Source: a virus
IMG/VR virus record: IMGVR_UViG_3300035660_000005
Location: 1-64,000 of that record
DNA length: 64,000 nt
Direction: 5' to 3' (one strand)
Translations under genes and position numbers: made by a program
In this document: positions 3,388-63,999 of the stretch, in pieces
Layout of the letters: each line of letters opens with the position of its first letter
How positions within the stretch are numbered: position 1 is the stretch's first letter
Notes under the pieces: generated by a model
Told to the model about the DNA's origin: nothing
Databases searched by the model: none
What the model saw: only the letters and a program-made list of their open reading frames with translations

Positions 3388-3638
3388 CTCTCAAGAAGGA
3401 CCGCCACCTCGGCCTCCAGCGCGAGCTTGGTCAACGACAGCATGTAGTAGAGTTCCCACGCTGCTGTGCCCGGTGGAGCCAAGTGACTCGCGGACTTGCG
3501 CGCACGTGTCTCGATGGAGTCCGGGCCCCTCTTGCAACCTCGGATCCGATTGTAGTAGGCTTGCCTCTTGGACGAGGCCCGTGCACCCTCTGAGATCTTT
3601 TGTCGACGCTCTAGTTCGTCTGCGGTTGGTGCCGTCAT
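3375..3638 (-). CDS. Small NUMOD3-like DNA-binding protein / homing endonuclease remnant
   Basis: ERRQKISEG and ETRARKSASH repeats resemble NUMOD3; ATG at 3638 coupled to the upstream stop. Confidence 0.4.
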   Translation of the reverse strand: MTAPTADELERRQKISEGARASSKRQAYYNRIRGCKRGPDSIETRARKSASHLAPPGTAAWELYYMLSLTKLALEAEVAVLLERCSE

Positions 3639-4426
3639 GATAACCCCCTTGCGAACTGCAGTAACGCCGCAGCATTCACGCATGCACGACGGCGCGCTCT
3701 TAGATCTGGCTTGCGGTGTAGGTCACTACTGCCGACGTTGTCGACGTAGCGCGCCTTGCCGCCGAGCTCAAGTTCGACGCCGCAGCACGCGGCCCAGTAC
3801 GCGAACGCGCTGTCGTTCGAGCGCACCAGAGCGTGAGGATGACTCACGAGACGAACAATCTCTTGCGTGAGTGAGCCATCGGCGCCGAGTAGGTGGATCG
3901 ACTTTCCAAGGTGCGTCACCGCATCAATGGCTCTGGCTCGGGAGTCCACAAGACTCGGCGAGTCGAAGCGCGAGAAGCACCGTCGGACAGAGTACTTGCT
4001 AAGGCCCAACGTGCGCACCGTCGGTAGAGTGGCCAGCTTGTCAGCACACTTCACGTACTCAGAGACGGTCGCGCCTTGCGGTACCGCCATGATGGTTGTG
4101 AAGTGATCAACACGTCGCATGAGTGTACCGATGAAATCACGAGTCGCTTCGACCGTACCAGGGCCGTCGAACAGTACGTCAGGGGCGACAACCTCCACAG
4201 CACCAATCTCGGCGGCAAGGTCGATCAGTGTGTCGTTGTCAACCAAGGCACCCTCAGCAGTGCCATTGTCAAGTAACACGAACCTACCCGCTGCGGCCGC
4301 ACGCTTGTAGTATGCTCGGTACCCTTCGTTGTCGCGCGCTAACGGCGCTAGACAGAACTCCAGGTCGCCCAGCGCGCACAGATCCAAGAAGTGAACAGAG
4401 CTGATGAAGGCCAAAGCCAGGCGCAT
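3635..4426 (-). CDS. TGT-fold transglycosylase-like protein (DpdA-like, candidate 7-deazaguanine insertion enzyme)
   Basis: LLDNG, APDVL, MAVPQG, IHLLG, RSNDSA motifs in TGT-superfamily order. Confidence 0.65.
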   Translation of the reverse strand: MRLALAFISSVHFLDLCALGDLEFCLAPLARDNEGYRAYYKRAAAAGRFVLLDNGTAEGALVDNDTLIDLAAEIGAVEVVAPDVLFDGPGTVEATRDFIGTLMRRVDHFTTIMAVPQGATVSEYVKCADKLATLPTVRTLGLSKYSVRRCFSRFDSPSLVDSRARAIDAVTHLGKSIHLLGADGSLTQEIVRLVSHPHALVRSNDSAFAYWAACCGVELELGGKARYVDNVGSSDLHRKPDLRARRRACVNAAALLQFARGLS

Positions 4427-4438
4427 CGACTCTACCTC

Positions 4439-4687
4439 CTACTGGTTCGCCACGTACCGCTTGCAACGACGACACATCCGCAACGTCGCCACAGGGTGAC
4501 GTCCGGACACGTCGTGTCCGAGACGGTGACAGATGAAGGCGCTTCCGTCGACCTTGTCCGCCAGATGGTCGGGCTGCGTGATCATGCCGATACCATGCAG
4601 CAGTCGTGAGAACGCGAGCGCTGCACAACCAACCACCTTGTTCATGAGTTCAACCACGATAGGTTCTCCCCTGCCCCTTACACCCAC
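4439..4687 (-). CDS. Hypothetical protein (Cys/His-rich C-terminus)
   Basis: ORF in operon; CHRLGH..CRRC. Confidence 0.45.
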   Translation of the reverse strand: MGVRGRGEPIVVELMNKVVGCAALAFSRLLHGIGMITQPDHLADKVDGSAFICHRLGHDVSGRHPVATLRMCRRCKRYVANQ

Positions 4688-5589
4688 GCACGCACTCGGC
4701 GAGCCGGCGTGGACGGTTCAGCCTGTGCGATGGCGCGCAACATGACGTCACGTCCCAGCTTACTTGGATCGCCCTCGGCGAGCGACACCACATGTGTGTC
4801 GACAAAGAGCGCCAACCGAGAGGCGGCATCCTCGGCCTCTCGCCTCGCGTCGGCATCCCAAGCAAGACTGACACTACGGAAGCCGGCCTCGGCCAGAAGC
4901 AACACTTGGGCATTGGTGAGGCGCTTACCGAGTGAGGCGACAGCGCGGTCCGGCAGCACAAAGCAGTCAAACACGCCCTCGACCACCACGACACGGTCGA
5001 TACTGTGGCGCACACGGTCCAGGTTGAACAAGTACTGAGACTGCCGGTTGCCGGACGGCGACAAGATCTTCATAGGTTGTACATCGGTAATGTCGCGCGC
5101 TACGAAGGAGACCAGTTGTGAGTTGTGTACCACCGGCACGATGAGCCGTCCGGCATAGCGACCCGTGCGACAGAACCCGATGTTGTACGTTTGCACCAGC
5201 TCAGGTGTGAGGTGTCGACGCGCCGCGTAGTTCCAGAACCTACGGTTGCCGGTGCCGACTGGCAACCTCAGACGCTCGAACTCATCTGGTAGTTTGATCG
5301 CATCCGACTGTCTGCTCGGCTCGTCGTCATCATCTTCGTCGGGAGTTGCCGGCGCAAGTACGTCACTGATCAGGCCCAACCTACGGAGCGCCTTGACGAG
5401 CTGCTCGCCGCGTCCGTGACGTCCGCAGTACTTGCAAGTCCAGAGCCCCCTACGCGCGTGAATGTAGAAGGAGATGCGGTGGTGGTGACAGAACGGACAG
5501 GTGCACGACAACTGGTCAGCACCCGACTCAGTTACGTCACGAGCAACGTGCTCGAGTATGGCCCGCCAGCTAGTTCTCGTCATCCTCAT
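4678..5589 (-). CDS. DNA primase (zinc finger + TOPRIM)
   Basis: CPFC..CKYCG zinc finger; VVVEGVFD and AWDAD TOPRIM motifs; start probably ATG 5589 or 5583. Confidence 0.9.
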   Translation of the reverse strand: MRMTRTSWRAILEHVARDVTESGADQLSCTCPFCHHHRISFYIHARRGLWTCKYCGRHGRGEQLVKALRRLGLISDVLAPATPDEDDDDEPSRQSDAIKLPDEFERLRLPVGTGNRRFWNYAARRHLTPELVQTYNIGFCRTGRYAGRLIVPVVHNSQLVSFVARDITDVQPMKILSPSGNRQSQYLFNLDRVRHSIDRVVVVEGVFDCFVLPDRAVASLGKRLTNAQVLLLAEAGFRSVSLAWDADARREAEDAASRLALFVDTHVVSLAEGDPSKLGRDVMLRAIAQAEPSTPARRVRAWV

Positions 5590-8394: not shown

Positions 8395-9803
8395 AGCTTT
8401 ACCACCTCCACCGCGGCTCCTACAGACTTGTACGCTCTGGCACGCTCGCGTGCTTGCCGGAACATCGTTCTGGAATGTGTGTCCCAAAGATCGATGACCT
8501 CGAGTCGATCCTTGCCCTCGGCCGTGCGGCTACCGCGACCGATGCGCTGCACGACAACATGCTGAGCGCGACCGCCACCGGCGATCACCAGACCAGCGAG
8601 TTCTGGCACGTCAACCCCCTGGTCGAAGATTACACTTGCAATTATAATGTGCTCACCGCCATCGCGCAACCTTTGCAGCACGTCCTTGCGCGTAGCTACC
8701 TCCGAGGAGCCGTGCACAAACGGTGCGCCTAGCGCTTGAGCCAGGCGAGCGCCGTGCTCGATCATGTTGACAAGTACCAACGTTGGGCGCCCGTCGCGCG
8801 CCAAGGCTTCGGCTGCGGCTACGATGGCCGCGTTGCGTGCATCGTTGCGGACTATCGCGCTACGGTAGAGAGCCGCGTAGTGTGGGAAGTGCCCATCAGC
8901 GACGTCGAACATCACCTCCGGCCATGAGGCCAGTGGTGTGGCGACGTTCCACTGAAGCATCGTAACGAACGCCGGCACACTGACGCCCCTCTGCACTGCC
9001 TCCTGCGGAGACAGCTCCATGATGACGGGGCCTGTAGCGCCGATGAGTTGGAGCCGCGCACGATCGTCGCCCTGCTTGAACGGTGTGGCCGACCACCCAA
9101 AGCGGTAATAGGCCGGTACGGACATCACGACGGGCATGTACGTTTTTGCCGGAAGGGAATGGCACTCGTCGTCATGCACGACGTCGAAACTCCGCAGTAC
9201 GTAGCGAGCCTCCTGTTCGTCCGTTCGTAACCATGATCGTAGTGACTGAAGCATGGCGATTGTCACATCGCCCAACTGCCGGCTTCCTGCCCCGAAGACA
9301 CCGATACGCACACCCGGCAGACGCTCCTTGAACCGCTTGGCAGTCTGCACAGCGAGGTCACGACTGTTGACCAGGACAAGCGTCCGCAGTCCAAGTGCTG
9401 CCGTGATGGCCATCATCATCTCGGTCTTGCCCGTGCCGGTTGCCATATGGAAGACTCCACGCTCGTGCTCAAGAGCGGCAGCAACCGCCGTCTCCTGGTA
9501 ATCTCGCAGCGCGACGGCCAACTTCCATGGGGTGCCCGGTTCTGGTTTGGAGCGGTCATAAACGTACTCGAAGACGATGTCCTCCGCAGTGAGTGCTGCG
9601 GCCACATGCTCCACCAGGCCGGCCGGGAACGCTCCGCGTCGAGACAGTAGAGTGCGCCGACCATCCCACTTGCCTGCCTTGTAAGCTCGCGTGAACCGGA
9701 AACCCTTGTCCCAGTAGCTGAGCGCCTCTCGAACGGTACGCAGTGCAGCGGGTGGACCCTCAACGCCCGCCAGCGTGTTCGTGACGTAGAGCCTCGTGCT
9801 CAC
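8391..9803 (-). CDS. Superfamily 2 DNA helicase (UvsW/XPB-like)
   Basis: LRDYQ, ATGTGKT, DECH, SAT, QRIGRGSR motifs; GTG at 9803 overlaps the polA stop. Confidence 0.9.
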   Translation of the reverse strand: MSTRLYVTNTLAGVEGPPAALRTVREALSYWDKGFRFTRAYKAGKWDGRRTLLSRRGAFPAGLVEHVAAALTAEDIVFEYVYDRSKPEPGTPWKLAVALRDYQETAVAAALEHERGVFHMATGTGKTEMMMAITAALGLRTLVLVNSRDLAVQTAKRFKERLPGVRIGVFGAGSRQLGDVTIAMLQSLRSWLRTDEQEARYVLRSFDVVHDDECHSLPAKTYMPVVMSVPAYYRFGWSATPFKQGDDRARLQLIGATGPVIMELSPQEAVQRGVSVPAFVTMLQWNVATPLASWPEVMFDVADGHFPHYAALYRSAIVRNDARNAAIVAAAEALARDGRPTLVLVNMIEHGARLAQALGAPFVHGSSEVATRKDVLQRLRDGGEHIIIASVIFDQGVDVPELAGLVIAGGGRAQHVVVQRIGRGSRTAEGKDRLEVIDLWDTHSRTMFRQARERARAYKSVGAAVEVVKL

Positions 9804-12739
9804 CGCCTCACCTTCTGCGTCCTGCCGACGTACTCGGTAGACATGGACTCGCGCACGCGCGTCACGAACGTGCCAGCCCTCAGCTCGCTCCACCCGCGCT
9901 CGAGATCGTCGAGTGTGAGCTCTTTGTCTTCACCCCAGCGCTCGCGCACCTTGACGGCTACGGGCAAGTACCACCCATCCGGCCACCTGAGTCCGCCCCA
10001 GTATCGATTCGTCGCGAAGGGGATGATCAGCTTCGGTACACTATACATGACGTCGTGGATGAGCCGCTTGCAGGCGTCGATGTGCTTCGTAGGCACGACG
10101 GAGATCAACGAGTCATGCAGGCTGATGGCGAGGTGGGCTCCATACTCGTGGTGAAACACTCGTGCTGGGTAGTCCCCAAAGCGCTCTCTCAGCAGTCGAT
10201 GTATGAGGATGCTGTCACCGTACTCCTCGACGCCCTGCCAGTCGTTCAACCCGATCGTTGCGAGGTGCAGAATGTCCGCCGCCGAGCCCTGTGGGAACAT
10301 GCTGATCGCCTCTCTACGGAAGTGTCCTTGCTCCCAGTTCGGACGTCCGTAGACGAGCCCGTCTATCTTCCATTTCCGGAAGTGGCGCACTCGGTCGAAG
10401 ACGTTGGCCGCGATGCGGCGCTCGTTAAGGAGCGCTCTGACCTGGTCGTGATATTCTCTGATCGCCGGATAGACCTTGAAGTAGTTGTCAATCTCCGCCT
10501 TGGCCTCGTCAAGGGGAATACCGAACGCCGCAGCAACGGAGCCCGGCCCACGACCGAAGTTCACACCATGGGTGAAGGTCTTGGCCTTCATTCTGTGGTC
10601 GCCAGTAACCTCCTCAAGTGGCACGTGGAGAACACTCACGGCTGCGGCCGCATGCATGTCCAAGCGCTTATGCCCTGTCAATGCAAGGTGCTCCTCGAGC
10701 TCGTCTGGGATCTCGAAGTACAACGAACCGCAGGTCGCGCAGGACTGCAACTGCTGTATGTAGAGATCGCAGCCGGCCACGTACGCCTCGATCCTGTTCT
10801 CAATCTGGCTGTAGTCCGCATCAACGAGAAGGTGATCAGCGGGTGCGCGAATCATGTTGCGCACGACCGGACTACCGGGTGGGTTCTGCACGTTCGGTCT
10901 GGAGCTCGAAAGGCGCCCACTCTCAGTGCCTGGGATGTGGAAGGTTGGATGCAGGCGACCGTTGGGTTTGACGTATCGCAGCCACGCCTTCGCCTTGTCG
11001 GTTCCGTCACCAATGAATGTCGAGCGCAGCTTGAACACCTGGCTCAGCTCGAGTAGCGTCGTCAAGACCTCTCTTTGCAAGGACGTGAGCTTCGGCGTCT
11101 CGAGTAGGTCCAGTATCGAGCCCTTGGACGACTCACCCTTCGCGGAACCCTGTGAGCCGGCCTTCTTCGTCTCCTCCGCGCTGGGCCTCTTCAAGCCCAG
11201 TCCGATCTTCACGCCCTCCTCACCAATGTGTTCGTACAGCAACCGCTTCAGCTGTGTGTGACTGTTGTAGTTTGTGGGCGGCCTAACGCCACCCCGAACG
11301 AGCACCTCGTCGAGGTGCTCCCTGAGCTCTCTCACCTTCTTGTCTATTTGTGTCCCGAGAGCTCGCATGTACTCGACGTCCATTGGGATGCCTTGGCTTG
11401 ATGCGTACGTCAGGGCGCGCGACAGCGGCATAGCGATCTCATGGAGCAGCCACTCGCCTGCTGGGTTTATCCTGCGCAGCTTCTCGAGTGTGATGTCCTT
11501 GAGGCGACGCTCGCAGTCGGCGTCGGTTGCACTGTACGTCCAGAGTGTCTCCTCAGGGGCACACGCGTAGGAGTGCTTGATCGTCGGTGCCCAGCGCTTG
11601 AGTTCTACATCGTACTTGGGGAAGATACCGTAGACCTCACTCAAGTGTTCGAGGTCGTGAGACCGCTTCTGTTCGTGGTAGAGATGATGTGAGAGCATCG
11701 TGTCGTACTCGAAGCGGCGGACACGGATGTCAAGCTGCTCACGGCAGAAGGCTATGTCGAACGCACCGTTCTGTGCGGACTTCGGCACATCACTCTCGAG
11801 GATCTCCTTGAGTACGGCCTTCACGCACACCAGCGCCTTCGGAGACCACAGTGTGCGCGGCGTACCGCGCCTCGTCCCTACGGTCTCGAGCACTTCTTCG
11901 AGCGAGAGACCGTCGCATTCGATGTAGCGGCCGACCAGCGGTATGACGTACCCTTCACCTGGCACCGTTGAGAAACTAGCGCACAGCACCTGGTTCTCAT
12001 ACGGATCCAAGCCCTCGGTTTCGAGGTCGAATGTGATCTCTTCTGCACTGAGTAGGTAGTCCCGCAACTCGTCGAGCTGTACCAGCGCTTCGGTCTCGGT
12101 GCACTCCGGACCGGGCACGACTATGCGGTAGTCGCCAAACGCCTCGAACTCGCCGGCCTCTTCCTTTGTCGGTTCCGGTAGCGCGTTGGGTTGCAACGCA
12201 TCGTACGCCCGTTGCAGGTCAGCACGGAACTGCTCCTCGTACTGATCCTCATGTTGCATCACTGCACTTGGGTGGTACGTGACGACAGTTTTGACTCCAA
12301 ACTGGTCGCACTTGAACGGCTTGCCGCGCGCCTGTCCGACGGGCATCTCACAGTGCACGGCATCGAGCGCGGAACCACCAAGTGCTACGATGAGCTTCGG
12401 GTTGAGTTGCTCAACGTCCTCCTTGAGGTACTGACGGCAGATCCCGATCTGCTCCGTCGTCGGAGGTGCCTGTGTGCCGCCGCGCTTCGGTGGCCAGCAA
12501 CGGCAGGCGTTCGCGTATGCCACACGGGCTGGGTCGAAGCCGACTTGGCGCAGTCCGTCCCTGAGGTACTGACCGGCTCGTCCTACGAATGGACGTCGTC
12601 GCTGGTCCTCGTCCCTACCGGGTGCCGCACCAACAAACAGTACATCAGCACCCTCAGGCAGTGTCGAGTTGACAACTGCGCTGCGGGGCTCGCGGGACTT
12701 CCAGAGTGGACAGAGCCTGCAATCGGGTGGTGCTGGCAT
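9800..12739 (-). CDS. polA: Family A DNA polymerase with N-terminal family-4 UDG-like domain and 3'-5' exonuclease
   Basis: UDG: CxxC, GAAPG..PFVGRAG, YHPS. Exonuclease: FDLET, QNGAFD, YSATD. Polymerase: TESGRLSSSRPNVQN, ADYSQIE, RxxAK, HD. Confidence 0.93.
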   Translation of the reverse strand: MPAPPDCRLCPLWKSREPRSAVVNSTLPEGADVLFVGAAPGRDEDQRRRPFVGRAGQYLRDGLRQVGFDPARVAYANACRCWPPKRGGTQAPPTTEQIGICRQYLKEDVEQLNPKLIVALGGSALDAVHCEMPVGQARGKPFKCDQFGVKTVVTYHPSAVMQHEDQYEEQFRADLQRAYDALQPNALPEPTKEEAGEFEAFGDYRIVVPGPECTETEALVQLDELRDYLLSAEEITFDLETEGLDPYENQVLCASFSTVPGEGYVIPLVGRYIECDGLSLEEVLETVGTRRGTPRTLWSPKALVCVKAVLKEILESDVPKSAQNGAFDIAFCREQLDIRVRRFEYDTMLSHHLYHEQKRSHDLEHLSEVYGIFPKYDVELKRWAPTIKHSYACAPEETLWTYSATDADCERRLKDITLEKLRRINPAGEWLLHEIAMPLSRALTYASSQGIPMDVEYMRALGTQIDKKVRELREHLDEVLVRGGVRPPTNYNSHTQLKRLLYEHIGEEGVKIGLGLKRPSAEETKKAGSQGSAKGESSKGSILDLLETPKLTSLQREVLTTLLELSQVFKLRSTFIGDGTDKAKAWLRYVKPNGRLHPTFHIPGTESGRLSSSRPNVQNPPGSPVVRNMIRAPADHLLVDADYSQIENRIEAYVAGCDLYIQQLQSCATCGSLYFEIPDELEEHLALTGHKRLDMHAAAAVSVLHVPLEEVTGDHRMKAKTFTHGVNFGRGPGSVAAAFGIPLDEAKAEIDNYFKVYPAIREYHDQVRALLNERRIAANVFDRVRHFRKWKIDGLVYGRPNWEQGHFRREAISMFPQGSAADILHLATIGLNDWQGVEEYGDSILIHRLLRERFGDYPARVFHHEYGAHLAISLHDSLISVVPTKHIDACKRLIHDVMYSVPKLIIPFATNRYWGGLRWPDGWYLPVAVKVRERWGEDKELTLDDLERGWSELRAGTFVTRVRESMSTEYVGRTQKVRR

Positions 12740-15697: not shown

Positions 15698-16069
15698 ATG
15701 GGAGTTCCACTTAAACGTCGCACCGCACGAGAGATGACTGAGCCGGAGCGGGCTTGGGTAGGAGCGCTGCTTGAGGGCGAAGGCAGTGTTTACCCTAACG
15801 GCGGCGGCACCACGATATGCGTAGCTAACACCGACCTCGAACTGATCTCGGCTTTGTTACGGCTCACTGGGGTTGGATGCGTGTCTCTGCAGACACGTGC
15901 AGGGCAACGTAGAGGAAGTGGCACCGCCCGTCATGATCTTTGGTTGTGGACTCTCCACCGACACAACGACGTCTACGCGGTTGCCTGCCAGTGCACCGAG
16001 TATTCGCAGAAGGCTCAACGCGCCATGAAGCTTATCGAACAGCGGGAGGCCAAGCGTGCAGAGCACTAA
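15698..16069 (+). CDS. LAGLIDADG homing endonuclease-like protein
   Basis: AWVGALLEGEGSV motif, ANTD.ELI. Confidence 0.75.
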   Translation: MGVPLKRRTAREMTEPERAWVGALLEGEGSVYPNGGGTTICVANTDLELISALLRLTGVGCVSLQTRAGQRRGSGTARHDLWLWTLHRHNDVYAVACQCTEYSQKAQRAMKLIEQREAKRAEH

Positions 16070-16724
16070 GCCAATCACAATCGGCGTCGACGAGTGTAAT
16101 TTTAGTCCGAGTATCTGTGGCGACTGTGTAGTCGCGGCTTGCACGTTGACTGCCGAGCCACCTGAGGGGCTGCTCGGAGACTCCAAGAAGCTGTCGCGGG
16201 CACGACGGCTCGCAGCCTTCGAGTGGCTGCAAGAGAACTCGCTGTACGTCGTGGAGATCGCCGCAGTGAACCACATCTCGCTCTGCGGTGTGTACAAGGC
16301 GCGCAACGCAGCCGCGAGGCGGGCCGCCGAGGGCTTGATAGCCCTCCTGGAAACCCAGGACGTGTGCGTCGTCATCGACGGCAACCCCTTCCCGTTGGGG
16401 TCACCAGGACGGCTGTGGCAGCACTCAACCCAGGTGAAGTTCATCGTACGTGCCGACGAGACCGTGCCCGAGGTCTCGGCTGCGTCCATTATTGCCAAGA
16501 CCTACACTGACGCCCTCTTCGACGGCTGGGGTCGGAACTGGGCTGGCTACGGTATGGAGCGCGACCACGGCTCCCCGAGTACGAAGCACAAAGACGCACT
16601 GCGCAAGCAAGGCCCATCGCCGCTACACCGCACCCACCACTACGGAGCCGACTGGTGGAAGCAGCTACTGGGTACGGACTGTCACTGCGGTTCGATTGGG
16701 CGTCGATACCCCATCGGGTCGTAA
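16056..16724 (+). CDS. rnhB: Ribonuclease HII
   Basis: GVDE, DSKKLS, IDGN, VSAASIIAK, GPSPLHR. Confidence 0.9.
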   Translation: MQSTKPITIGVDECNFSPSICGDCVVAACTLTAEPPEGLLGDSKKLSRARRLAAFEWLQENSLYVVEIAAVNHISLCGVYKARNAAARRAAEGLIALLETQDVCVVIDGNPFPLGSPGRLWQHSTQVKFIVRADETVPEVSAASIIAKTYTDALFDGWGRNWAGYGMERDHGSPSTKHKDALRKQGPSPLHRTHHYGADWWKQLLGTDCHCGSIGRRYPIGS

Positions 16725-16743: not shown

Positions 16744-17112
16744 ATGCTGAGCATCACGACCAAGGTCACAGTTCCAGGCTACCACCATTGGGCCGGCGCT
16801 CCGGACAATGCACAGAACTTCCTGAAGAACATCCACCGACATCTCTTCACGTTCGAGGCCGAGGTGCAGGTAACCGGAAGCCGCCAGGTCGAGTTCTTCG
16901 AGTTGCAGGAGCGGATGCGCTACATACTCGAGAGGGTCGGCTACTTCAACGGCCTACTTGTGAGCAGACATGGCACATCGATGTCGTGCGAGCAGATGGC
17001 TGAGACGATGGCACGGGCGCTGTACAACCAGCACGGTCACATGGTGCTGAAGGTGTCCGTGTCAGAGGATGGCGAGTCTAGCGGGACTTGGACGCGCGAC
17101 CGATACGAGTAA
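16744..17112 (+). CDS. QueD-like T-fold protein (DpdL-like)
   Basis: GYHHW, LKNIHRHLF (LxxxHRHxF), VEFF, SCEQMA, VSEDGE; ATG at 16744 with RBS. Confidence 0.7.
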   Translation: MLSITTKVTVPGYHHWAGAPDNAQNFLKNIHRHLFTFEAEVQVTGSRQVEFFELQERMRYILERVGYFNGLLVSRHGTSMSCEQMAETMARALYNQHGHMVLKVSVSEDGESSGTWTRDRYE

Positions 17113-17115
17113 GTC

Positions 17116-17631
17116 ATGCGGCAGTTACTGACGCGCGAAGCGGTTGAGGACATCGTGCTCGCACTCGCCGAGCGCATCGAGGACGATGAGCGCCTCGGCG
17201 ACGACCCCCTGATGCTCGGTGTGTTGAATGGTGCGTTCATGTTCGTCGCTGACTTAGTGCGCGCACTCGAATGTGGTGTCGCGTGGAGTCATGGCGACGT
17301 CGCATTCATTGGTGTGTCCAGCTACGGCGACAAACAGACCAGCTCCGGTGAACCTGTGTGCACCTACCGACCCGATGTGAACCTGCGCGGACGAACCATA
17401 CTACTGGTGGAAGACATCGTGGATAGCGGCTGCACCATCGAGTGGCTCGACAGCTACTTACACGATGCTGGTGCCGAGCGTGTGCTTGTGTGCTCGCTGC
17501 TGGTGCGTGAAGGCAAAGAGCACCTGGTGGACTTCATCGGGCGCGTGATCAAGCACGGCGACTTCGCATTCGGCTACGGCCTAGACTTGAAGCACCGCAT
17601 GCGGGGCCTGCCGGACATATGGGTCGAGTAG
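17116..17631 (+). CDS. hpt: Hypoxanthine/guanine phosphoribosyltransferase
   Basis: GVLNGAFMFVADL, VSSYG, LLVEDIVDSG, FGYGLD..RGLP. Confidence 0.9.
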   Translation: MRQLLTREAVEDIVLALAERIEDDERLGDDPLMLGVLNGAFMFVADLVRALECGVAWSHGDVAFIGVSSYGDKQTSSGEPVCTYRPDVNLRGRTILLVEDIVDSGCTIEWLDSYLHDAGAERVLVCSLLVREGKEHLVDFIGRVIKHGDFAFGYGLDLKHRMRGLPDIWVE

Positions 17632-17644
17632 TAGGGAGGCCAAC

Positions 17645-18187
17645 ATGAGTGGCAGCAAGACACGAGCCAGCTTGGCAGTCGAGCTCCGCTTGACGGAGCC
17701 GATCACCGTCTACCTCGCCGGCCCGATCTCGCACTTGTCGTACGACGAGGCCATGAGCCGTCGCGCCGAGCTTATTGAGCCGCTGCGGGCCGCACAAGTC
17801 ACCTACGGAATCAGGTTCGCCATTCGTTCCCCCATGAGGGGCAAGATGTTCCTAGCGCACGTGCGCGGTCCGTTGAAGCCCGGTGGCTATCGGCAAGCCA
17901 TGAGCACCGACTCGGCCATCGTCGGCAGGGACGAGACAGATGTCCGCGTCTGCGAGGTCATGATCGCAGACTTCCTCGGTGCGCCCGAGAAGAGCATCGG
18001 CACTTGTGTCGAATTCGGCCTCTGCTTGGCGTGGCATAAGTTCGTGATCATGATCATCGAGGAGGGTAAGCTCAACCCTCACGACCACGGCTTCCTCCGG
18101 CGCATCGCCCACTGTATAGTCCGCACGCGGGAGGAGGCGGTCAAGGCGCTGCTCCAGTATGCAGGAGTCGAGCCGGACGAGAGCTAG
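17645..18187 (+). CDS. Nucleoside 2-deoxyribosyltransferase / nucleotide N-glycosidase-like protein
   Basis: VYLAGPI, RD..DV..C, SIGTCVEFG. Confidence 0.75.
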   Translation: MSGSKTRASLAVELRLTEPITVYLAGPISHLSYDEAMSRRAELIEPLRAAQVTYGIRFAIRSPMRGKMFLAHVRGPLKPGGYRQAMSTDSAIVGRDETDVRVCEVMIADFLGAPEKSIGTCVEFGLCLAWHKFVIMIIEEGKLNPHDHGFLRRIAHCIVRTREEAVKALLQYAGVEPDES

Positions 18188-25515: not shown

Positions 25516-28500
25516 GCTCCCAAGTGACCGAACTGAAGCAACTTGCGATGCAGGCTGTCCTCCGCGGCCTCTGGTCGCGGGTTGTAGACGTGAACGTTGA
25601 GTTCTCTCTTACCTGGACCGGCCTGCTGCCCAGCGAACTTCTGGAGCACGTTCAACGGCCCAGCGCCCGTCGGGTTGAGAACGCCCATCTGTCGCGGCAG
25701 GTCCTTGACTCCAGCGCCCCAACCACCGAGCAGCCCAGCGGCCATGTCACCACCGACCTTGGCGAACTTCGTCGAAGGCGACTCGGCGCCGGCCTCCTCC
25801 TGAGCGGCCGCGATAGCGGCGTCGATGATCTCCCTGATCCTGTCGTAGAGTGTACCAGCGGCCGCATCGAGCCCACGGATCATACCAGCGATCAGTTCCT
25901 CCCCTACACGTCCAAACATCGAGCTGCCCTCGCCCATGGCGTAACTGAACGCTCCACTGGCAGCGTAGCCGACGAGCGCCGCACCACCCTGCTTGGCTGG
26001 TTCGACGCCGGCGATGATGGCCGCGGTCGCGGATGCAACGACAGCATCACCGATACTCGGCGCTTCCGCCTCGGCTGTATCGGTGCCCTCCTGGGCGGTG
26101 TCGACGACAGCTCCGACGATGGACGTGTTGAGTGTGGTGGCAGCCTCGTTGACGGCTGCCGGTAGCCCAGGCAGGCCCATCGCTGCACGAGTGGCGCTAG
26201 CCCACCCCTCGTCGAGCGCGTCCGGAAGATCTGGTAGACCCATCGCCGTACGTGTCGACTCAGCCCACTGGACAGCCATACTCTTGGCGGCCTCGTCTGC
26301 CGCCGTCGGTAGGGCAGAGAGTCCCATCGATGCGCGGGTAGCGTTGGCCCAGCCCTCATCCATGGCGGCCGGAAGATCGGGGAGCGCCATCGACTGACGA
26401 ACCAGGTCTCCCCACTGTGCGGCCATACTCGGAGCGCCAGCTGCAATACCAGAACCGACCTCGTTCGCGATCTTGAGACCGGCCTCGAATAGGGTCGACC
26501 ACGGCCCAGGAATCTTGTCCACGCCAGGGACGTTCTTGAGGCCACCAAGCATCGCGTTAGCGCCCTCACCGATTAGGTCTGCACCGGCACTGAGGCCCTT
26601 GCCGATCAGGTCAGGGAAGGATCCGGCCCACTCTGTGACCTTGGCAATCACGAAGTCCTTGGCGTTCAACACGCCCTGCCAGATCAGGTCAGGGATCTGT
26701 TCGCCTCGAGCAACCAGGCCTGGAGAACCGAACCAGTTCATCGGGTTGAGGATACTGAGGATGTCACCGACCAGCCCGCGCAGTCCACCAAGTAGTGTCT
26801 CCATTGCGTTCTGCACGCCCTGCCACATCAGGCCAGGCACACTCTGGGCGATGCCGAGCACCCCACTGATCCCTGAGCTGAGCGTCCCCAGGATGGTCGA
26901 CGCGATGTTCGAGCCCATCTCAGCGAGGCTGCCCGCGATGCCCGTGATCGCTTCCCACGCCTTGTCACGGAAGAGTGCAAAGAGGAGGCCTGGGATGCCC
27001 CCGAACACTGTGAGCAAGATTGTCTGCCAGTTGCTCGTGAAGAAGTTCGGAATGTCGGAGGTGAAGAAGGACAGGATTGTGTTCCATGCGGCCATTGCCT
27101 GATCGTGGAACACCGTGAAGAGGATACCGGGGATGCCACCGAAGACGACGATCAGGATTTGTGTCCAGTTGTCCTTGAAGAAGTTCGGAATCGTAGTGGT
27201 GAAGAATGGGACGATCTTCTCGTTCCAGACGCCCGCCAGCATCGAACCGAGGTTGCCGAAGAGCCCGGTCACTGCGTCCATAGCGCCCTGGAACAAGCCC
27301 AACAGCTTGGTGCGGATCCCGAAACTGTCGCCCGCGAGCGCGCCGGCGAAGATCCCGATCGGGCCGAGTAGGATACCCGCCACCATCGGCCAGTTGTCCT
27401 TGAGCCAGGCCAACGCCTGCTGTCCCATCTGGAGCAGCGGCTCGAAGAGGTGCATGAAGAACTCGCCGACCTTCTGAAGTGCCGGTAGGAGGACATCTGC
27501 AAAGAACTTCTTGACGTCATCCCAGTGGGTGATCAGGAGGTACGCAATGGCTGCGGCGGCGGCCACGGCCACGACGATGCCGAGAGGCGGTGTCATCATC
27601 GCCATGCCCAGTCCGCGTGCGGCGGTCGTCACCATGGGGAGCGTCTTCCCCATGCCACCGAGGGCACCAGTTAGTCCACCGATCATCGCGGCCGGCTTGA
27701 CTCCCATCGCACCCATGATCTGAAACGCTGGCGCGAAGTCCTTGGTCACGCTCATGGCGGTGCCCTTGATCTGGTTGCCCAACAGCTTCAGACGATTCAT
27801 GAGCGTGCCTTCGATGGCCGCGGCCGCCCTGTCGGTGGCACCTGCCGCCTCTTCGACCGACACCGAGAACGCACTTATGTCACCACCAGATGCGGACAAA
27901 GCTGCAGACAGTTTAGGACCAGCCTTCGCGCCGAACAGGTCGATCGCAACCTGGGCGCGCAGTGTTGGATCCTCGATCTTGCTGATGGAGTCGGACAGAA
28001 TCTTGAACTTCTCTGCCGGGGACATTGCCATGAAGGCAGCCAGGGAATCTCCCGTCAGTCCGATACTCGTCGCTATCGTCTCCAACTTCTTGTTGCTGGC
28101 GTCGGTGTTGTCAGTGAGCAGTACCACGGCCTTGGAAAACGCGGTGGATGTGGACGCGGCGTCAATGCCCGATGCCTCGAAGAGGTTGAGGTAGCTGATG
28201 GCGTCATCCATGCTCATACCCAGAGTCGTGAAGGTCGGAGCCAACGTATTCAGCGCTCCCGTACTCGCCTGGACGTTTGTACCGAACCGCTGGTGAGAGA
28301 CGATGAGGCGATCCATGATGCCTTCGCCATCGGCCGCCGTTCCGCCCCACGCGTCGAGAACGGCATCAAAGTCCTTCACACTCTGCACCGCATCAAGACC
28401 TGTGGCAGTGGAGAACTTGAGGTACTGCTCCGTCATGCCACGGACCTCTTCCTTGTTCTGGGCGTTCACGCCTTGCATGGCGATGAGGTTCTCGGAGACA

Positions 28501-59992: not shown

Positions 59993-60004
59993 GCGATCTT
60001 CTGA

Positions 60005-62104: not shown

Positions 62105-62109
62105 GCAAC

Positions 62110-62289
62110 TCAGTCCTGCTTCGGGTGGCGAATCGCGTGCAGTTCGAGCAGCTGGGCCTCAGCGCGGATCTTGCGCGCCTTGGCCTGGATCCACGCTACG
62201 GTGGCACCGATCAGTCCCACAGCGTTCAGGAACACCAGGGTCGCTGCGCAGGCCATAAGCACCTGGAACGGTAGGAAGTCATACCACAT
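62110..62289 (-). CDS. Small membrane protein (59 aa)
   Basis: Hand-translated; one TM helix. Confidence 0.4.
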   Translation of the reverse strand: MWYDFLPFQVLMACAATLVFLNAVGLIGATVAWIQAKARKIRAEAQLLELHAIRHPKQD

Positions 62290-63001
62290 CCGTCACCTCG
62301 CTTTGGAGTGCTGCGAGCTCAGTAAGCAGCTCAGGCGACGGTGGCTCGTAGCCCTCGTCACCGGGCTCAAGGAAGCGCTTGTGCCGACCGAGGTAGTACA
62401 GGTCGTCCGAGGTCACGATGCCATCAGCAAGACCGTACCGGACAGACTCCTCCGCGGACAACCAGAGCATGCGGTCGATGTCCGCCAACAACTCGTCGCG
62501 AGAGCGCTTCACGCCGCACTCGATGTAGCAGTCCACCATGGCGTCGCGGATCTTGTTCATCTCCTGCTGGCACAGCTCCAGGTCCCTCGAGTCCACGGAG
62601 AACTCCTGTGCGTTGATCCTCGGTAGGTGCAGCATCAGTCGGGCATGCGGCAGTAGTAAGCGGCGTCGACCAGCCGCGAAGATCAGCGAGGCCATGGACG
62701 CGCACGACATGCCGATGGTGGTCACTGGCGCCGGCGATGCACGAATCGTGTCGTACAGAGTCATGCCGACGTCGATGGACCCACCCTCACTGGCGACGAA
62801 CAGCACGATGGGATCGCTGCTCTCCAACGCAAGCGCAAGCAGGCTCTCGAACACTCGGGTCGGCGAGTACATGTCCTGCCGTGCCGTGTAGCTTAGCATA
62901 GGACCCACAAGGAACAAGGCACGTCGGCTCGTGCCGACGATCTCGGCTCCCCAGGCAAGCTCGTTGTCGCGGATTCTGTCGGGACGTGGTCTCACAAACA
63001 T
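62279..63001 (-). CDS. clpP: ClpP-like protease
   Basis: SEGGS, LYDTI, CASMAS (Ser), LMLHLP (His), WLSAEESVRYGLAD. Confidence 0.85.
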   Translation of the reverse strand: MFVRPRPDRIRDNELAWGAEIVGTSRRALFLVGPMLSYTARQDMYSPTRVFESLLALALESSDPIVLFVASEGGSIDVGMTLYDTIRASPAPVTTIGMSCASMASLIFAAGRRRLLLPHARLMLHLPRINAQEFSVDSRDLELCQQEMNKIRDAMVDCYIECGVKRSRDELLADIDRMLWLSAEESVRYGLADGIVTSDDLYYLGRHKRFLEPGDEGYEPPSPELLTELAALQSEVTDVV

Positions 63002-63003
63002 GA

Positions 63004-63372
63004 CTACTCCTTGCTCACTGTTTCCCAGCGGTCATCGAGCTCGAGCACCTGCCGGCCGGCTTGCTGGTCGAGGTAGTATTGCAGAAGCGTGAGACAGTGC
63101 CAAGCCGCGTGGGCCATGTGCGGAAGGCCCGACTCGTCGTCGATGTCCTCACCGTTGATGGAGGCGAAGACATGACGCAGAAGAGCATTGTACGACAGGC
63201 TCCAGTTGTAGCCCTTGCGGAAGTTGTGGGCCGCGTACTTCTCGAGCGCCCGTCCGTACACCTCGCCCAGCACCAGTAGCGCCTCTGCTGGCGCCAAGAA
63301 CAGTTGTGACGGCTTTGAGCACTTCTCGCCACCGGTCAGCCGGTTCTTGACTCTTACCTCGTCGGTCATCAT
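63004..63372 (-). CDS. dATP/dGTP diphosphohydrolase-like protein (DUF5664)
   Basis: KYAAHNFRKG..YNALLRH..GEDIDDESGLPHMAHAAW. Confidence 0.8.
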   Translation of the reverse strand: MMTDEVRVKNRLTGGEKCSKPSQLFLAPAEALLVLGEVYGRALEKYAAHNFRKGYNWSLSYNALLRHVFASINGEDIDDESGLPHMAHAAWHCLTLLQYYLDQQAGRQVLELDDRWETVSKE

Positions 63373-63378
63373 GTCTCC

Positions 63379-63999
63379 TCATGCCAAGCGGTGCTGAACG
63401 CGCCGACCACGGCCTGTCTTGACCACCTCGCCGGCGTCGCGCAGAACGTGAAGGGCACGATGGAGGCCGCCTGCCACGCTCACGTAGGCGCTCAACTCGC
63501 GGGCTGTCTTTGGGCCGGTTGAGAGAGCGACCAAGATGCGCTTTCCTTGAGTCATGTCCGAGGTGATGGACACCGTATGGTCAGTGGGGACACTACCGTG
63601 ACGCTCGGGTCGCCAGGGCTTGAGTTCCGCATCGTACTCGGCGTAGCCGGATTCCGTCTCCCACACGCGGACCTTCTCCACGTAGGCCGGCATGTTCCCG
63701 GTCACCTCGAGTTCAGCCACCAGGAATCGGTAGATGTGGTAGGCGAGCTGCTCCGCGGTGGTGACCTCCACGCCCAACGTTGGAGCTGACTGGTTCAGGA
63801 ACGTATGATCGAGCAGTCCATGCAGCCTCTTCAGTGCAGCACCGACAGCGGTGAAATCGACGAGCATGCCCTCCTTGGCGTGACCGTGACCACAGGGCAC
63901 GAGACTGCGACCTACGATGAACACCTCCACTGTGTACTTGTGCCCATGGAGGTTGTGACACCTGCCGTCGTGGTTGGGCAGTCTGTGCGCACACTCGAG
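63379..63999 (-). CDS. queD: 6-carboxytetrahydropterin synthase QueD with C-terminal wHTH extension (5' end beyond window)
   Basis: Frame stays open to the edge: AHRLPNHDGRCHNLHGHKY, GMLVDF, LDHTFLN, TAEQLA, VRVWET. Confidence 0.88.
   Translation of the reverse strand, partial: LECAHRLPNHDGRCHNLHGHKYTVEVFIVGRSLVPCGHGHAKEGMLVDFTAVGAALKRLHGLLDHTFLNQSAPTLGVEVTTAEQLAYHIYRFLVAELEVTGNMPAYVEKVRVWETESGYAEYDAELKPWRPERHGSVPTDHTVSITSDMTQGKRILVALSTGPKTARELSAYVSVAGGLHRALHVLRDAGEVVKTGRGRRVQHRLA

What the first reader, a model, noticed from the sequence alone, without database searches (positions are those of the whole stretch)
3635..63999. Dispersed 7-deazaguanine DNA-modification toolkit, possibly a nucleotide-pool (pre-replicative) route
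Seen in three separate loci: a TGT/DpdA-like gene in the replication operon (3635-4426); a QueD-like protein with LxxxHRHxF, HPRT and an NDT-like gene (16744-18187); and canonical QueD next to a dATP/dGTP diphosphohydrolase (63004-63999). Established: phage FolE/QueD/QueE/QueC plus DpdA install 7-deazaguanines to resist restriction. From recall, the LxxxHRHxF QueD paralog (DpdL) is linked to unsubstituted 7-deazaguanine. Inference: PRTase, NDT and dGTP hydrolase could deplete dGTP and feed a deaza-base into dNTPs, giving extensive G replacement. FolE, QueE and QueC are not in the window.
Basis: partly seen in the sequence, partly recalled or inferred. Interest (0 to 1): 0.75.

Follow-up and report, generated by a model that had tools for sequence, protein, structure and literature searches.

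The report
Phage 7-deazaguanine DNA kit with purine-recycling enzymes
This uncultured phage carries every gene known from phage phiST for replacing guanine in its DNA with 7-deazaguanine, plus three purine-pool enzymes wired into the same gene clusters, which makes it testable whether the new base enters DNA before or after replication.

Summary
All named genes are present at the given coordinates.

- **Core pathway:** 3635-4426 is a DpdA3-family protein with a TGT fold and a conserved catalytic Asp. 16744-17112 is a DpdL-family QueD paralogue with the motif LKNIHRHLF. QueD lies at 63379-64026.
- **Missing genes found:** FolE (72214-72885) and QueE (73023-73931) lie on the same 78.3-kb contig, just outside the window. 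QueC is absent, as in phiST. The phage is therefore a new, distant member of the phiST-type system, which replaces all G with 2'-deoxy-7-deazaguanine (Cui 2023).
- **Accessory genes:** DpdL, an HGPRT and an NDT-superfamily gene form one tight operon. A DUF5664 dNTP pyrophosphohydrolase follows QueD.
- **New associations:** Purine phosphoribosyltransferases recur beside DpdL in 23 of 80 viral loci, and occur in the proven dDG phage phiST and its two close relatives. NDT-like and DUF5664 genes are an adjacent pair elsewhere. Many DpdA3 homologues are fused to nucleotide-kinase-like domains.

**Most likely reading:** DpdA3 inserts the base, and the accessory enzymes recycle guanine to GTP. The pre-replicative nucleotide-pool route stays open at about 0.3. 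It has a 2026 precedent in DmtZ.

The parts
3635..4426 (-). DpdA3-family transglycosylase-like protein (263 aa). It is a minimal TGT-type barrel without a zinc subdomain.
   Evidence: phrog_20335 5e-23. tblastn 1e-14 and blastp 2e-20 to phiST CGPG_00065 = DpdA3. The family profile A3 hits phiST DpdA3 at 2.5e-75. AF2 model: pLDDT 95.5, pTM 0.92. All listed top Foldseek PDB hits are tRNA-guanine transglycosylases, prob 1.0. Invariant D205 aligns with the second Asp of E. coli Tgt GIDMFDC. No CxCxxC motif.
16056..16724 (+). RNase HII, the first recognisable gene of the plus-strand operon that contains DpdL.
   Evidence: PF01351 3.2e-16. Its stop lies 19 nt before the DpdL ATG, which has a GGGGGAG RBS.
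16744..17112 (+). DpdL-family QueD paralogue (122 aa), the proposed 7-carboxy-7-deazaguanine decarboxylase.
   Evidence: LKNIHRHLF motif. phrog_17812 6.7e-10. Hits ACP17 gp125, BUCT-ZZ01 and MA9V-3. Aligns with phiST CGPG_00067; invariant residues are H14, H31, R32, H33, F35, E50, C82, E83, S107, E108, D109 and E111.
17116..17631 (+). Hypoxanthine-guanine phosphoribosyltransferase (171 aa).
   Evidence: PF00156 1.1e-14. TIGR01203 108 bits, below the 150 cut-off. 35% identical to E. coli Hpt with SSYG, EDIVDSG and GYGLD conserved. The 30 best PDB sequence hits are all H(G)(X)PRTs, best 3e-22.
17645..18187 (+). NDT-superfamily enzyme (180 aa), probably acting on (deoxy)nucleoside monophosphates.
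   Evidence: PF05014 31.3 bits against a cut-off of 28.8. Best PDB sequence hit is BlsM, aligning GTCVEFG with GTHVEIG. The AF2 model (pLDDT 76.8) matches YtoQ, NDTs, BcmB/MilB and DNPH1. Family invariants are Y23, P63, D96, S117 and E123. Family members are directly adjacent to DUF5664 genes in 7 of 80 metagenome loci and within 0.5-4.6 kb in 2 more.
63004..63372 (-). Stand-alone DUF5664 (PF18909) protein, a likely dATP/dGTP/dUTP pyrophosphohydrolase. It starts 6 nt after the QueD stop.
   Evidence: PF18909 1.4e-26. phrog_801 9e-36. The stand-alone DUF5664 of phage Wayne hydrolyses dATP, dGTP and dUTP to dNMP (PMC12884076). Homologues occur in 610 phage records, mostly actinophages.
63379..64000 (-). 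Canonical QueD (CPH4 synthase). The gene continues to 64026 beyond the window and has an extra C-terminal ~80 aa, possibly a winged helix. Two further parts lie on the same contig but outside the window, so they cannot be listed as parts: FolE at contig 72214-72885(-) and QueE at contig 73023-73931(-).
   Evidence: QueD: PF01242 2.6e-28; weak HTH_5 hit. TIGR03367 82.7 bits. CHNLHGH motif. FolE: PF01227 2.3e-50 to 5.6e-52 and NF006826 172 bits, above its cut-off. QueE: TIGR03365 216.8 bits against a cut-off of 206.1, and phrog_2076 1e-34.

Best explanation
The phage replaces guanine in its DNA with 7-deazaguanine (dDG) using the phiST-type pathway.

Core steps:
- FolE, QueD and QueE convert GTP to 7-carboxy-7-deazaguanine (CDG). 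This is established chemistry for these families.
- The DpdL-family protein removes the carboxyl group to give free 7-deazaguanine. This was proposed by Cui 2023 and has never been shown in vitro.
- The DpdA3-family TGT-fold enzyme, expressed with the replisome genes, exchanges guanine for the deaza base. This is inferred.

The three pool enzymes most likely form a deoxy-to-ribo guanine recycling line:
- DUF5664 turns dGTP into dGMP.
- The NDT-like enzyme releases guanine from dGMP.
- HGPRT converts guanine, including the guanine released by base exchange, into GMP and so back to GTP, the pathway's only precursor.

This supplies the roughly 48,000 deaza bases needed per genome on this contig alone. 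It also keeps free guanine low, so replacement can go to completion.

Shown here: gene identities, folds, motifs, operon structure and gene-neighbourhood associations. Inferred: all enzymatic steps and their substrates.
For: - Complete gene set with QueC absent, as in the phiST group (Cui 2023).
- DpdA3 membership and TGT fold. DpdL motif and family alignment.
- DpdA3 lies between the SSB and primase genes. In other viral loci it is followed by clamp and clamp-loader genes.
- PRTases are an integral and specific accessory of DpdL clusters. PF00156 is present in 21 of 50 DpdL-bearing viral records and within 10 kb of DpdL in 23 of 80 loci, with a conserved order QueE-QueD-PRT-FolE-DpdL-DpdA3.
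- Among 50,697 phage records the Gpt-like PRTase hits only BUCT-ZZ01 and the dDG phages phiST, phi13:1 and phi19:2. HGPRT-type hits occur in only 17 records.
- The window uses a different PRTase subfamily (HGPRT) in the same position, which points to convergent recruitment.
- Both PRTase types keep the (E/D)DxxDSG Asp that in HGPRTs contacts purine N7 (residue role from memory). This fits guanine as the substrate.
- The tubercidin PRTase TubE did not accept 7-deazaguanine (PMC6112128).
- The NDT-like enzyme has the Tyr/Asp/Glu triad and a Ser where nucleoside-specific NDTs carry Asp (that NDT detail is from memory). Its best sequence match is a nucleotide hydrolase.
- The NDT-like family pairs with DUF5664, whose dNTP-to-dNMP activity is published.
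Against: - No DpdA3 or DpdL has been shown active. Cui et al. obtained no dDG from DpdL plus DpdA in E. coli.
- Post-replicative DpdA enzymes studied so far modify at most 30% of G, whereas DpdA3 phages reach 100%.
- The DpdA3 family lacks the zinc subdomain, is mostly acidic (median pI 5.9) and is often fused to dNMP/dN-kinase-like domains. This fits small-molecule substrates.
- This DpdL lacks the His of the common HDDRE segment (it has GSRQ).
- NDT adjacency to DpdL is not conserved in relatives L093 and L095 or in other DpdL loci.
- DUF5664 is not linked to DpdL elsewhere and is common in phages with canonical DNA.
- The contig is only about 73% complete.
Confidence: 0.5

Rival explanations
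1. Pre-replicative nucleotide-pool route. DUF5664 hydrolyses dGTP to dGMP. The NDT-like enzyme acts like DmtZ and transfers deoxyribose-5-phosphate from dGMP to 7-deazaguanine, giving 7-deaza-dGMP and guanine. Alternatively, the PRTase makes a 7-deaza or 7-carboxy-7-deaza ribonucleotide, as TubE does. Host kinases then make 7-deaza-dGTP, the phage UDG-PolA incorporates it, and HGPRT recycles the released guanine. DpdA3 either works on nucleotides or only mops up residual G.
For: - DmtZ precedent: an NDT-like dNMP hydrolase and transferase working with DUF5664/Dut in Z-genome phages (PMC12884076).
- P0004 has the same triad, the transferase-type Pro and an uncharged 5' pocket.
- NDT-like and DUF5664 genes are adjacent or overlapping in 7 of 80 loci and nearby in 2 more.
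- In the window, each of the two sits beside a deazaguanine gene.
- The dNTPase-type genes MazG, a dCTP-deaminase/dUTPase-like gene and DUF3310, plus kinase genes or fusions, flank DpdA3 in phiST and many loci.
- TubE shows that PRTases can take CDG.
- 100% replacement in DpdA3 phages, and ADG nucleoside found in CP220-infected cells, as cited by Cui.
- The failed E. coli reconstitution suggests that enzymes are missing.
Against: - A DpdA3 is retained in every case and sits in the replisome module.
- The HGPRT keeps the N7-contacting Asp.
- TubE rejected 7-deazaguanine.
- No kinase or RNR is found on the contig.
- The NDT-like gene is not linked to DpdL in relatives or other DpdL loci.
- DUF5664 prefers dATP tenfold over dGTP in phage Wayne and is common in canonical-DNA phages.
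- Homology of P0004 to DmtZ itself was not tested.
Confidence: 0.3
2. The accessory genes are unrelated to the modification. HGPRT, the NDT-like enzyme and DUF5664 would be general nucleotide-salvage or host-DNA scavenging genes that happen to lie beside DpdL and QueD in a mosaic genome.
For: - DUF5664 occurs in 610 phage records, mostly with canonical DNA.
- NDT-like homologues sit in ordinary nucleotide-metabolism contexts in BDU-MI-1 (between A1 and a dNMP kinase) and Tunturi_5 (next to RNR).
- In relatives L093 and L095 the NDT-like gene lacks DpdL or HGPRT neighbours.
- PF05014 and PF18909 are not enriched in DpdL-bearing records.
Against: - The PRTase link to DpdL is strong, recurrent and nearly exclusive.
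- The DpdL-HGPRT gap of 3 nt and the HGPRT-NDT gap of 13 nt suggest co-translation.
- HGPRT genes are very rare in phages.
Confidence: 0.12
3. The pathway serves RNA, or makes a different product. The TGT-fold protein would modify the phage's own GUN-anticodon tRNAs, or the DNA would carry dCDG or another derivative because this DpdL variant is not a decarboxylase.
For: - A 21-tRNA array including Tyr-GTA, His-GTG, Asn-GTT and Asp-GTC lies about 2 kb from FolE and QueE.
- This DpdL lacks the His of the HDDRE segment.
- DpdL activity has never been shown.
Against: - The closest characterised systems (phiST, phi13:1, phi19:2) carry dDG in DNA.
- DpdA3 sits in the replication module, not the tRNA region.
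- The family lacks the tRNA-binding zinc and C-terminal parts of TGT.
Confidence: 0.06

Closest known systems
Cellulophaga phage phiST dDG system: FolE, QueD, QueE, DpdL (CGPG_00067), DpdA3 (CGPG_00065) (Cui et al., NAR 2023, PMC10516641)
   Same: The same five families are present and QueC is absent. The DpdL motif is LxxxHRHxF. DpdA3 is a roughly 260-aa TGT-fold protein. A pyrophosphohydrolase and a PRTase are also encoded in phiST.
   Different: - Identity is only about 29% for DpdA3, and DpdL is alignable only through the family profile.
- The genes are dispersed over four loci instead of one cluster.
- The PRTase is HGPRT-type, not Gpt-like.
- The pyrophosphohydrolase is DUF5664, not MazG.
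- An NDT-like gene is present, and there is no P-loop kinase next to DpdA3.
- The phage is unrelated to phiST: 61% GC, terminase without a match, and PolA at most 25% identical to isolates.
DmtZ plus DutZ/DUF5664-1 route to dZTP in PurZ0 phages Ghobes and Wayne (Poubanne et al., NAR 2026, PMC12884076)
   Same: A stand-alone DUF5664 is combined with an NDT-superfamily enzyme that has the Tyr/Asp(Asn)/Glu triad, a conserved Pro and no acidic 5'-OH ligand. This family is often directly adjacent to DUF5664.
   Different: - The base concerned here would be 7-deazaguanine with dGMP, not 2-aminoadenine with dAMP.
- The two genes are 45 kb apart in this phage.
- Direct homology to DmtZ was not tested, and no activity is known.
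Tubercidin and toyocamycin biosynthesis (TubC/A/B plus the PRTase TubE; PMC6112128)
   Same: GTP cyclohydrolase I, CPH4 synthase and CDG synthase are genetically linked with a purine PRTase.
   Different: - TubE is CDG-specific and the decarboxylase is UbiD-type, acting on the nucleotide.
- The product there is a secreted ribonucleoside, not DNA.
- The window's PRTase is a typical HGPRT.
Bacterial DpdA/DpdB and phage DpdA1/DpdA2 preQ0/G+ systems (Hutinet 2019, PMC6884629; PDB 7ui4)
   Same: TGT superfamily. The best PDB sequence hit of the family profile is the DNA-guanine transglycosylase 7ui4 (E 0.0076).
   Different: - Those systems need QueC and insert preQ0 derivatives at 0.1-30% of G or less.
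- Their enzymes are larger, and TGT carries a zinc site. The DpdA3 family is shorter and has no CxCxxC motif.

Membership tests
DpdA3 (TGT/DpdA superfamily) | Sequence homology to phiST CGPG_00065 | tested here: met
   tblastn 1e-14 at 29% identity over 78% of the query. The locus tag was confirmed. blastp 2e-20. The profile built around the window protein hits phiST DpdA3 at 2.5e-75.
DpdA3 (TGT/DpdA superfamily) | TGT-type (beta/alpha) barrel fold | tested here: met
   AF2 pLDDT 95.5, pTM 0.92. All listed top Foldseek PDB hits are tRNA-guanine transglycosylases, E about 1e-6, prob 1.0, TMq 0.54-0.66.
DpdA3 (TGT/DpdA superfamily) | Catalytic Asp nucleophile | tested here: met
   D205 is invariant in 86 family members. 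It aligns with the second Asp of E. coli Tgt GIDMFDC. That hhalign result is weak (E 0.043), and the residue's role is from memory of the TGT literature.
DpdA3 (TGT/DpdA superfamily) | Guanine-for-deazaguanine exchange on DNA | not testable with these tools
   This has not been shown for any DpdA3; the E. coli tests failed (Cui 2023).
DpdL (QueD paralogue) | LxxxHRHxF in place of the QueD motif CxxxHGH | tested here: met
   LKNIHRHLF. HRHLF is invariant in 22 homologues.
DpdL (QueD paralogue) | Homology to named DpdL proteins (phiST CGPG_00067, ACP17 gp125) | tested here: met
   ACP17 gp125: tblastn 4e-4, blastp 4.7e-8. phiST DpdL gave no pairwise BLAST hit; it aligns only in the family alignment, at 29% identity.
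DpdL (QueD paralogue) | Co-occurs with FolE, QueD and QueE, without QueC | tested here: met
DpdL (QueD paralogue) | CDG decarboxylase activity | not testable with these tools
   The activity is only proposed in the literature. The window protein lacks the His of the HDDRE segment.
HGPRT (6-oxopurine PRTase) | Type I PRTase domain and HGPRT active-site motifs | tested here: met
   PF00156 54.5 bits. SSYG, EDIVDSG and GYGLD are conserved against E. coli Hpt; the 6-oxo Lys is replaced by Arg131. PDB hits are all H(G)(X)PRTs.
HGPRT (6-oxopurine PRTase) | NCBIfam equivalog score | tested here: not met
   TIGR01203 108.2 bits against a cut-off of 150. The protein is divergent, so its substrate range is open.
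NDT superfamily, DmtZ-like dNMP hydrolase/transferase | PF05014 domain and NDT fold | tested here: met
   31.3 bits against a cut-off of 28.8. Foldseek hits are YtoQ, NDTs, BcmB/MilB and DNPH1, prob 1.0.
NDT superfamily, DmtZ-like dNMP hydrolase/transferase | Catalytic triad Tyr/Asp(Asn)/Glu and conserved Pro | tested here: met
   Y23, D96, E123 and P63 are invariant in the five-member family. The Glu aligns with the BlsM catalytic motif. Mapping to DmtZ Tyr6/Asn77/Glu103/Pro57 is by motif only.
NDT superfamily, DmtZ-like dNMP hydrolase/transferase | Monophosphate-specific 5' pocket | tested here: inconclusive
   The motif is SIGTCVE, with Ser six residues before the Glu, as in BlsM SPGTHVE. 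The model is of moderate confidence (pLDDT 76.8), and no ligand modelling was done.
NDT superfamily, DmtZ-like dNMP hydrolase/transferase | Direct homology to DmtZ and dR5P transfer activity | not tested
   The DmtZ sequence was not at hand. Ghobes and Wayne did not appear among the tblastn hits at E 0.1.
DUF5664 dNTP pyrophosphohydrolase | PF18909 domain above the gathering score | tested here: met
   92.8 bits against a cut-off of 27. The activity is known for the phage Wayne homologue.
CDG synthesis (FolE, QueD, QueE) | Curated model scores and the QueD CxxxHGH motif | tested here: met
   FolE NF006826 172 against 162. QueE TIGR03365 216.8 against 206.1. QueD PF01242 98.8 bits and CHNLHGH, although TIGR03367 scored 82.7, just under 89.25.

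The most novel reading that the evidence does not exclude
7-deazaguanine would enter this phage's DNA as a nucleotide.

- DUF5664 makes dGMP from dGTP.
- The NDT-like enzyme is a DmtZ-like deoxyribose-5-phosphate transferase that swaps guanine for 7-deazaguanine on dGMP.
- HGPRT returns the displaced guanine to the GTP-to-deazaguanine line.
- The polymerase builds dDG-DNA directly.
- DpdA3 proteins, which lack a zinc subdomain and are frequently fused to kinase-like domains, act on nucleotides or only finish the job.

This would be the first pre-replicative 7-deazapurine DNA pathway. It would overturn the current view that all such modifications are post-replicative.
Probability: 0.3. Interest if true: 0.85.

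Novelty: new variant of a known kind. Interest (0 to 1): 0.62.

Why it matters
Cui et al. [quoted passage not shown] Yet DpdA3 and DpdL have never been reconstituted, and how DpdA3 phages reach 100% replacement is unexplained.

This locus and the comparative data gathered around it name concrete candidates for the missing components:
- a purine PRTase present in the proven dDG phages and embedded in many DpdL operons;
- an NDT-like plus DUF5664 pair with a fresh biochemical precedent;
- kinase-like domains fused to DpdA3.

All of these can be assayed with standard substrates. Either outcome is useful. One would be a guanine-recycling loop that drives complete base exchange. The other would be a new pre-replicative route to deazapurine DNA, of interest for enzymatic synthesis of restriction-resistant DNA.

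Tried and rejected
- Pfam TGT finds none of these proteins: none in the window's contig, none in 50 DpdL records and none in phiST itself. Its absence therefore says nothing.
- PF18909 and PF05014 are not enriched in DpdL-bearing records. I dropped the idea that DUF5664 and NDT are general parts of DpdL systems.
- DUF3310, the dCTP-deaminase/dUTPase-like gene, c11, the GT-like family and the DpdA3-fused kinase domain have no counterpart in this contig.
- No close relatives were found in IMG/VR through HGPRT or PolA, and none among isolates through terminase. Relatives L093 and L095 were found only in metagenome contigs through the NDT-like gene. Their full records could not be searched.
- hhalign of the DpdA3 profile against a single E. 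coli Tgt sequence is weak (E 0.043). I use it only for the register of the catalytic Asp.
- No supplementary files of Cui 2023 are held, so the identity of ACP17's DpdA could not be checked. The A3 profile touches gp123 only weakly (E 0.003).
- I considered the 70386-70934 PNK-like ORF as the missing nucleotide kinase. I rejected it because it sits with an RNA ligase, a phosphoesterase and the tRNA array, which looks like a tRNA-repair set, and it does not match the DpdA3-linked kinase profile.
They are now described under the QueD part and in the text.

Full report
**What the window is.** The window is bases 1-64000 of a single 78,297-bp IMG/VR virus contig. The contig is linear, and CheckV estimates it at about 73% complete. 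It has about 61% GC. The phage is far from all isolates: the terminase gives no tblastn match at 1e-10, and PolA is at most 25% identical. Two metagenome contigs, L093 and L095, are true relatives, with terminase 50%, RNA ligase 51% and the NDT-like gene 59% identical.

- **Locus 1.** ORF 3635-4426(-) lies between the gp32-like SSB and the primase, in a minus-strand replication module that also holds RecA, a DnaB-like helicase, a UvsW-like helicase and a UDG-PolA fusion.
- **Locus 2.** On the plus strand, RNase HII (16056-16724) is followed after 19 nt by a 122-aa ORF with LKNIHRHLF (16744-17112). Then come an HGPRT after 3 nt (17116-17631) and an NDT-superfamily gene after 13 nt (17645-18187).
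- **Locus 3.** On the minus strand, QueD (63379-64026, running off the window) is followed after 6 nt by a 122-aa PF18909/DUF5664 protein (63004-63372), and then by a ClpP-like protease.

The rest of the contig settles the point. FolE is at 72214-72885 and QueE at 73023-73931 (TIGR03365, 216.8 bits, above its cut-off). Neither QueC nor a Pfam TGT domain is found anywhere on the contig.

**The TGT-like gene is a DpdA3.** It has no Pfam or NCBIfam hit. It matches phrog_20335 and, by tblastn, phiST CGPG_00065 (1e-14). Cui et al. named that protein DpdA3 (PMC10516641).

An exhaustive HMMER search found 2,049 representative relatives. A profile built from 86 of them hits phiST DpdA3 at 2.5e-75. The AlphaFold model is very confident (pLDDT 95.5). 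Its best PDB neighbours are all tRNA-guanine transglycosylases (Foldseek prob 1.0). The profile's best PDB sequence hit is the bacterial DNA-guanine transglycosylase 7ui4.

The invariant D205 aligns with the Asp of E. coli Tgt GIDMFDC that precedes Cys. From memory of the TGT literature, that Asp is the nucleophile. The family has no CxCxxC zinc motif and is mostly acidic.

**The QueD-like gene is a DpdL.** Cui et al. define DpdL by LxxxHRHxF replacing the QueD motif CxxxHGH, and by occurrence with FolE, QueD and QueE but without QueC. Both conditions hold here.

The protein hits ACP17 gp125, the DpdL that Cui et al. tested, as well as BUCT-ZZ01 and MA9V-3. It aligns with phiST CGPG_00067 within a family whose invariant residues it shares. 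There are two caveats. It lacks the His of the common HDDRE segment. Also, no DpdL has yet been shown to be active.

**Core conclusion.** The contig encodes the complete phiST-type set. In phiST, phi13:1 and phi19:2 this set accompanies replacement of dG by 2'-deoxy-7-deazaguanine, with no dG signal detected. The window's phage is a new, very distant member of that system.

**The accessory enzymes.**

- **HGPRT.** It is a genuine but divergent HGPRT, 35% identical to E. coli Hpt. All its PDB hits are H(G)(X)PRTs. It keeps the EDIVDSG Asp that contacts purine N7 in HGPRTs (residue role from memory). TIGR01203 scores below its cut-off.
- **NDT-like protein.** It has the NDT fold and an invariant Tyr/Asp/Glu triad plus a Pro. 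Its best PDB sequence match is the CMP hydrolase BlsM. The motif before the catalytic Glu is SIGTCVE, with Ser at the position where, from memory, nucleoside-specific NDTs carry an Asp for the 5'-OH.
- **DUF5664.** A stand-alone DUF5664 from phage Wayne hydrolyses dATP, dGTP and dUTP to dNMPs (PMC12884076).

**Comparative evidence gathered here.**

*DpdL is widespread.* At least 465 relatives exist in IMG/VR.

*PRTases are linked to DpdL.*
- In 50 DpdL-bearing records, PF00156 PRTases occur in 21.
- In 80 loci, a purine PRTase lies within 10 kb of DpdL in 23.
- It is often inside a conserved operon, QueE-QueD-PRT-FolE-DpdL-DpdA3-DUF3310-dCTP-deaminase/dUTPase-like-clamp-clamp loader.
- These PRTases are Gpt-like (PDB 1vdm), not HGPRT-like. 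The window therefore shows an independent recruitment of a 6-oxopurine PRTase to the same position.
- Among 50,697 phage records the Gpt-like PRTase hits only BUCT-ZZ01, which has DpdL, and the three proven dDG Cellulophaga phages. phiST's copy is at 28224-28571.
- HGPRT-type genes are found in only 17 records, mostly unannotated fragments.
- Cui et al. do not mention a PRTase.

*DpdA3 is linked to kinase-like domains.*
- Several DpdA3 homologues of about 440 aa carry an N-terminal P-loop domain resembling dNMP or deoxynucleoside kinases.
- phiST and MA9V-3 have such a gene immediately upstream of DpdA3.

*The NDT-like family pairs with DUF5664, but not with deazaguanine genes.*
- Seven of 80 metagenome loci holding P0004-family NDT-like genes have a DUF5664 gene directly adjacent or overlapping. 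Two more have one within 0.5-4.6 kb.
- None of those loci has deazaguanine genes.
- In relatives L093 and L095, the NDT-like gene is not beside DpdL or HGPRT.
- PF05014 and PF18909 are not enriched in DpdL records.
- DUF5664 is common in actinophages with canonical DNA.

**Mechanism.** The steps from GTP to CDG rest on established knowledge of the families. The step from CDG to 7-deazaguanine by DpdL, and insertion by DpdA3, are the literature's proposals.

For the accessory enzymes, I consider a guanine-recycling and supply line most likely:
- dGTP to dGMP (DUF5664);
- dGMP to guanine (NDT-like hydrolase);
- guanine to GMP (HGPRT), and on to GTP and FolE.

This line would also remove the guanine released by base exchange. 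Three points fit this reading. PRTases accompany DpdL phages, including the three shown to replace all G. They can be missing where a host enzyme could serve, as in ACP17 and MA9V-3. And they keep the Asp that contacts N7.

It now has a precedent: DmtZ, an NDT-like enzyme, hydrolyses dAMP and transfers deoxyribose-5-phosphate to 2-aminoadenine, working with DUF5664 or Dut. The following also argue for it:
- kinase fusions and dNTPase-type neighbours of DpdA3;
- the absence of a zinc subdomain in the DpdA3 family;
- 100% replacement in DpdA3 phages, against 30% or less for other DpdAs;
- the failed reconstitution in E. coli.

Against it:
- DpdA3 is retained and sits in the replisome module.
- No kinase or RNR was found on the contig, although the contig is incomplete.

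My estimates are DNA-level insertion with recycling at about 0.5, a pool route at about 0.3, unrelated salvage genes at about 0.12, and tRNA or another product at about 0.06.

**Novelty and verdict.** The core is a new member of a known system. The HGPRT/NDT-like/DUF5664 wiring is not in the literature held here. Nor are two family-wide associations found along the way: PRTase with DpdL, and a kinase-like domain with DpdA3. I therefore rate this a new variant of a known kind, with interest 0.62. It does not overturn anything by itself. It does turn the open question of how DpdA3 phages reach complete replacement into a short list of assays.

An overlapping window of the same contig carries a first-reader note with the same idea (e1-6101389).

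Noticed in passing
L007-L086 (for example L034:2771-3931, L029:11529-12620); ACP17 gp124 = L005:6972-8000: A ~386-aa family with weak Glycos_transf_1 hits lies next to DpdL in 36 of 80 viral loci, usually within 300 bp. It never co-occurs with the DpdA3 family, which is in 26 loci. Four DpdL genomes that are at least 90% complete lack any DpdA3-profile or Pfam TGT hit. This family may be an alternative insertion or tailoring enzyme.
   Followed up: partly
P0077, P0113, P0141, P0172 (proteins); phiST L003:5505-5984; MA9V-3 L004:7534-8004: DpdA3 homologues are fused to, or immediately preceded by, a P-loop domain resembling dNMP or deoxynucleoside kinases (GPDGxGKT...YDR...DDxVYS). Other homologues carry LAGLIDADG insertions (P0063, P0071, P0090).
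   Followed up: partly
L012, L017, L025, L033, L055, L074 (IMG/VR loci): A conserved operon runs QueE-QueD-purine PRTase-FolE-DpdL-DpdA3-DUF3310-dCTP-deaminase/dUTPase-like-unknown-sliding clamp-clamp loader. The PRTase, DUF3310 and dUTPase-fold genes are not part of the published dDG model.
   Followed up: partly
L097, L101, L110, L116, L134, L154, L159 (adjacent or overlapping); L115, L171 (0.5-4.6 kb apart): P0004-family NDT-like genes and DUF5664 genes form an adjacent, often overlapping pair in metagenome contigs that show no deazaguanine genes. This echoes the DmtZ/DUF5664 pairing of Z-genome phages.
   Followed up: partly
window 9800-12739 (-): The 979-aa DNA polymerase is a UDG-superfamily domain fused to a 3'-5' exonuclease and PolA. 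Such UDG-PolA fusions are a described phage subfamily (bioRxiv 10.1101/2025.03.26.645540, seen).
   Followed up: no
window 63379-63620 (-), the C-terminal ~80 aa of QueD: QueD is 215 aa, and its extra C-terminal segment gives a weak ArsR-type HTH hit (E 0.07). It may be a QueD-winged-helix fusion.
   Followed up: no
contig 67547-72233 (outside the window; L001:4547-9233): An RNA ligase (67547-68335), an array of 21 tRNAs (68374-70163, including Tyr, His, Asn and Asp GUN tRNAs), a PNK-like ORF (70386-70934) and a metallophosphoesterase (71301-72233) lie directly beside FolE and QueE. The set looks like a tRNA-repair kit.
   Followed up: partly
contig 73960-76142 (outside the window) and window 108-659: A Metallophos/SbcD-like protein (73960-74907) and an MT-A70 family methyltransferase (74904-76142) lie next to QueE. 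A DNA-methyltransferase-like ORF is at 108-659. The phage may carry a second DNA modification.
   Followed up: no
window 15698-16069 (+): A LAGLIDADG-like ORF (PF14528, 7e-5) opens the plus-strand block and overlaps the start of RNase HII.
   Followed up: no
L091:6088-6555 (Bradyrhizobium phage BDU-MI-1); L092:5974-6486 (Tunturi_5): The only isolate-phage homologues of the NDT-like gene sit between the A1 protein and a dNMP kinase in BDU-MI-1, and next to ribonucleotide reductase in a jumbo phage. This is consistent with a nucleotide-level role.
   Followed up: partly
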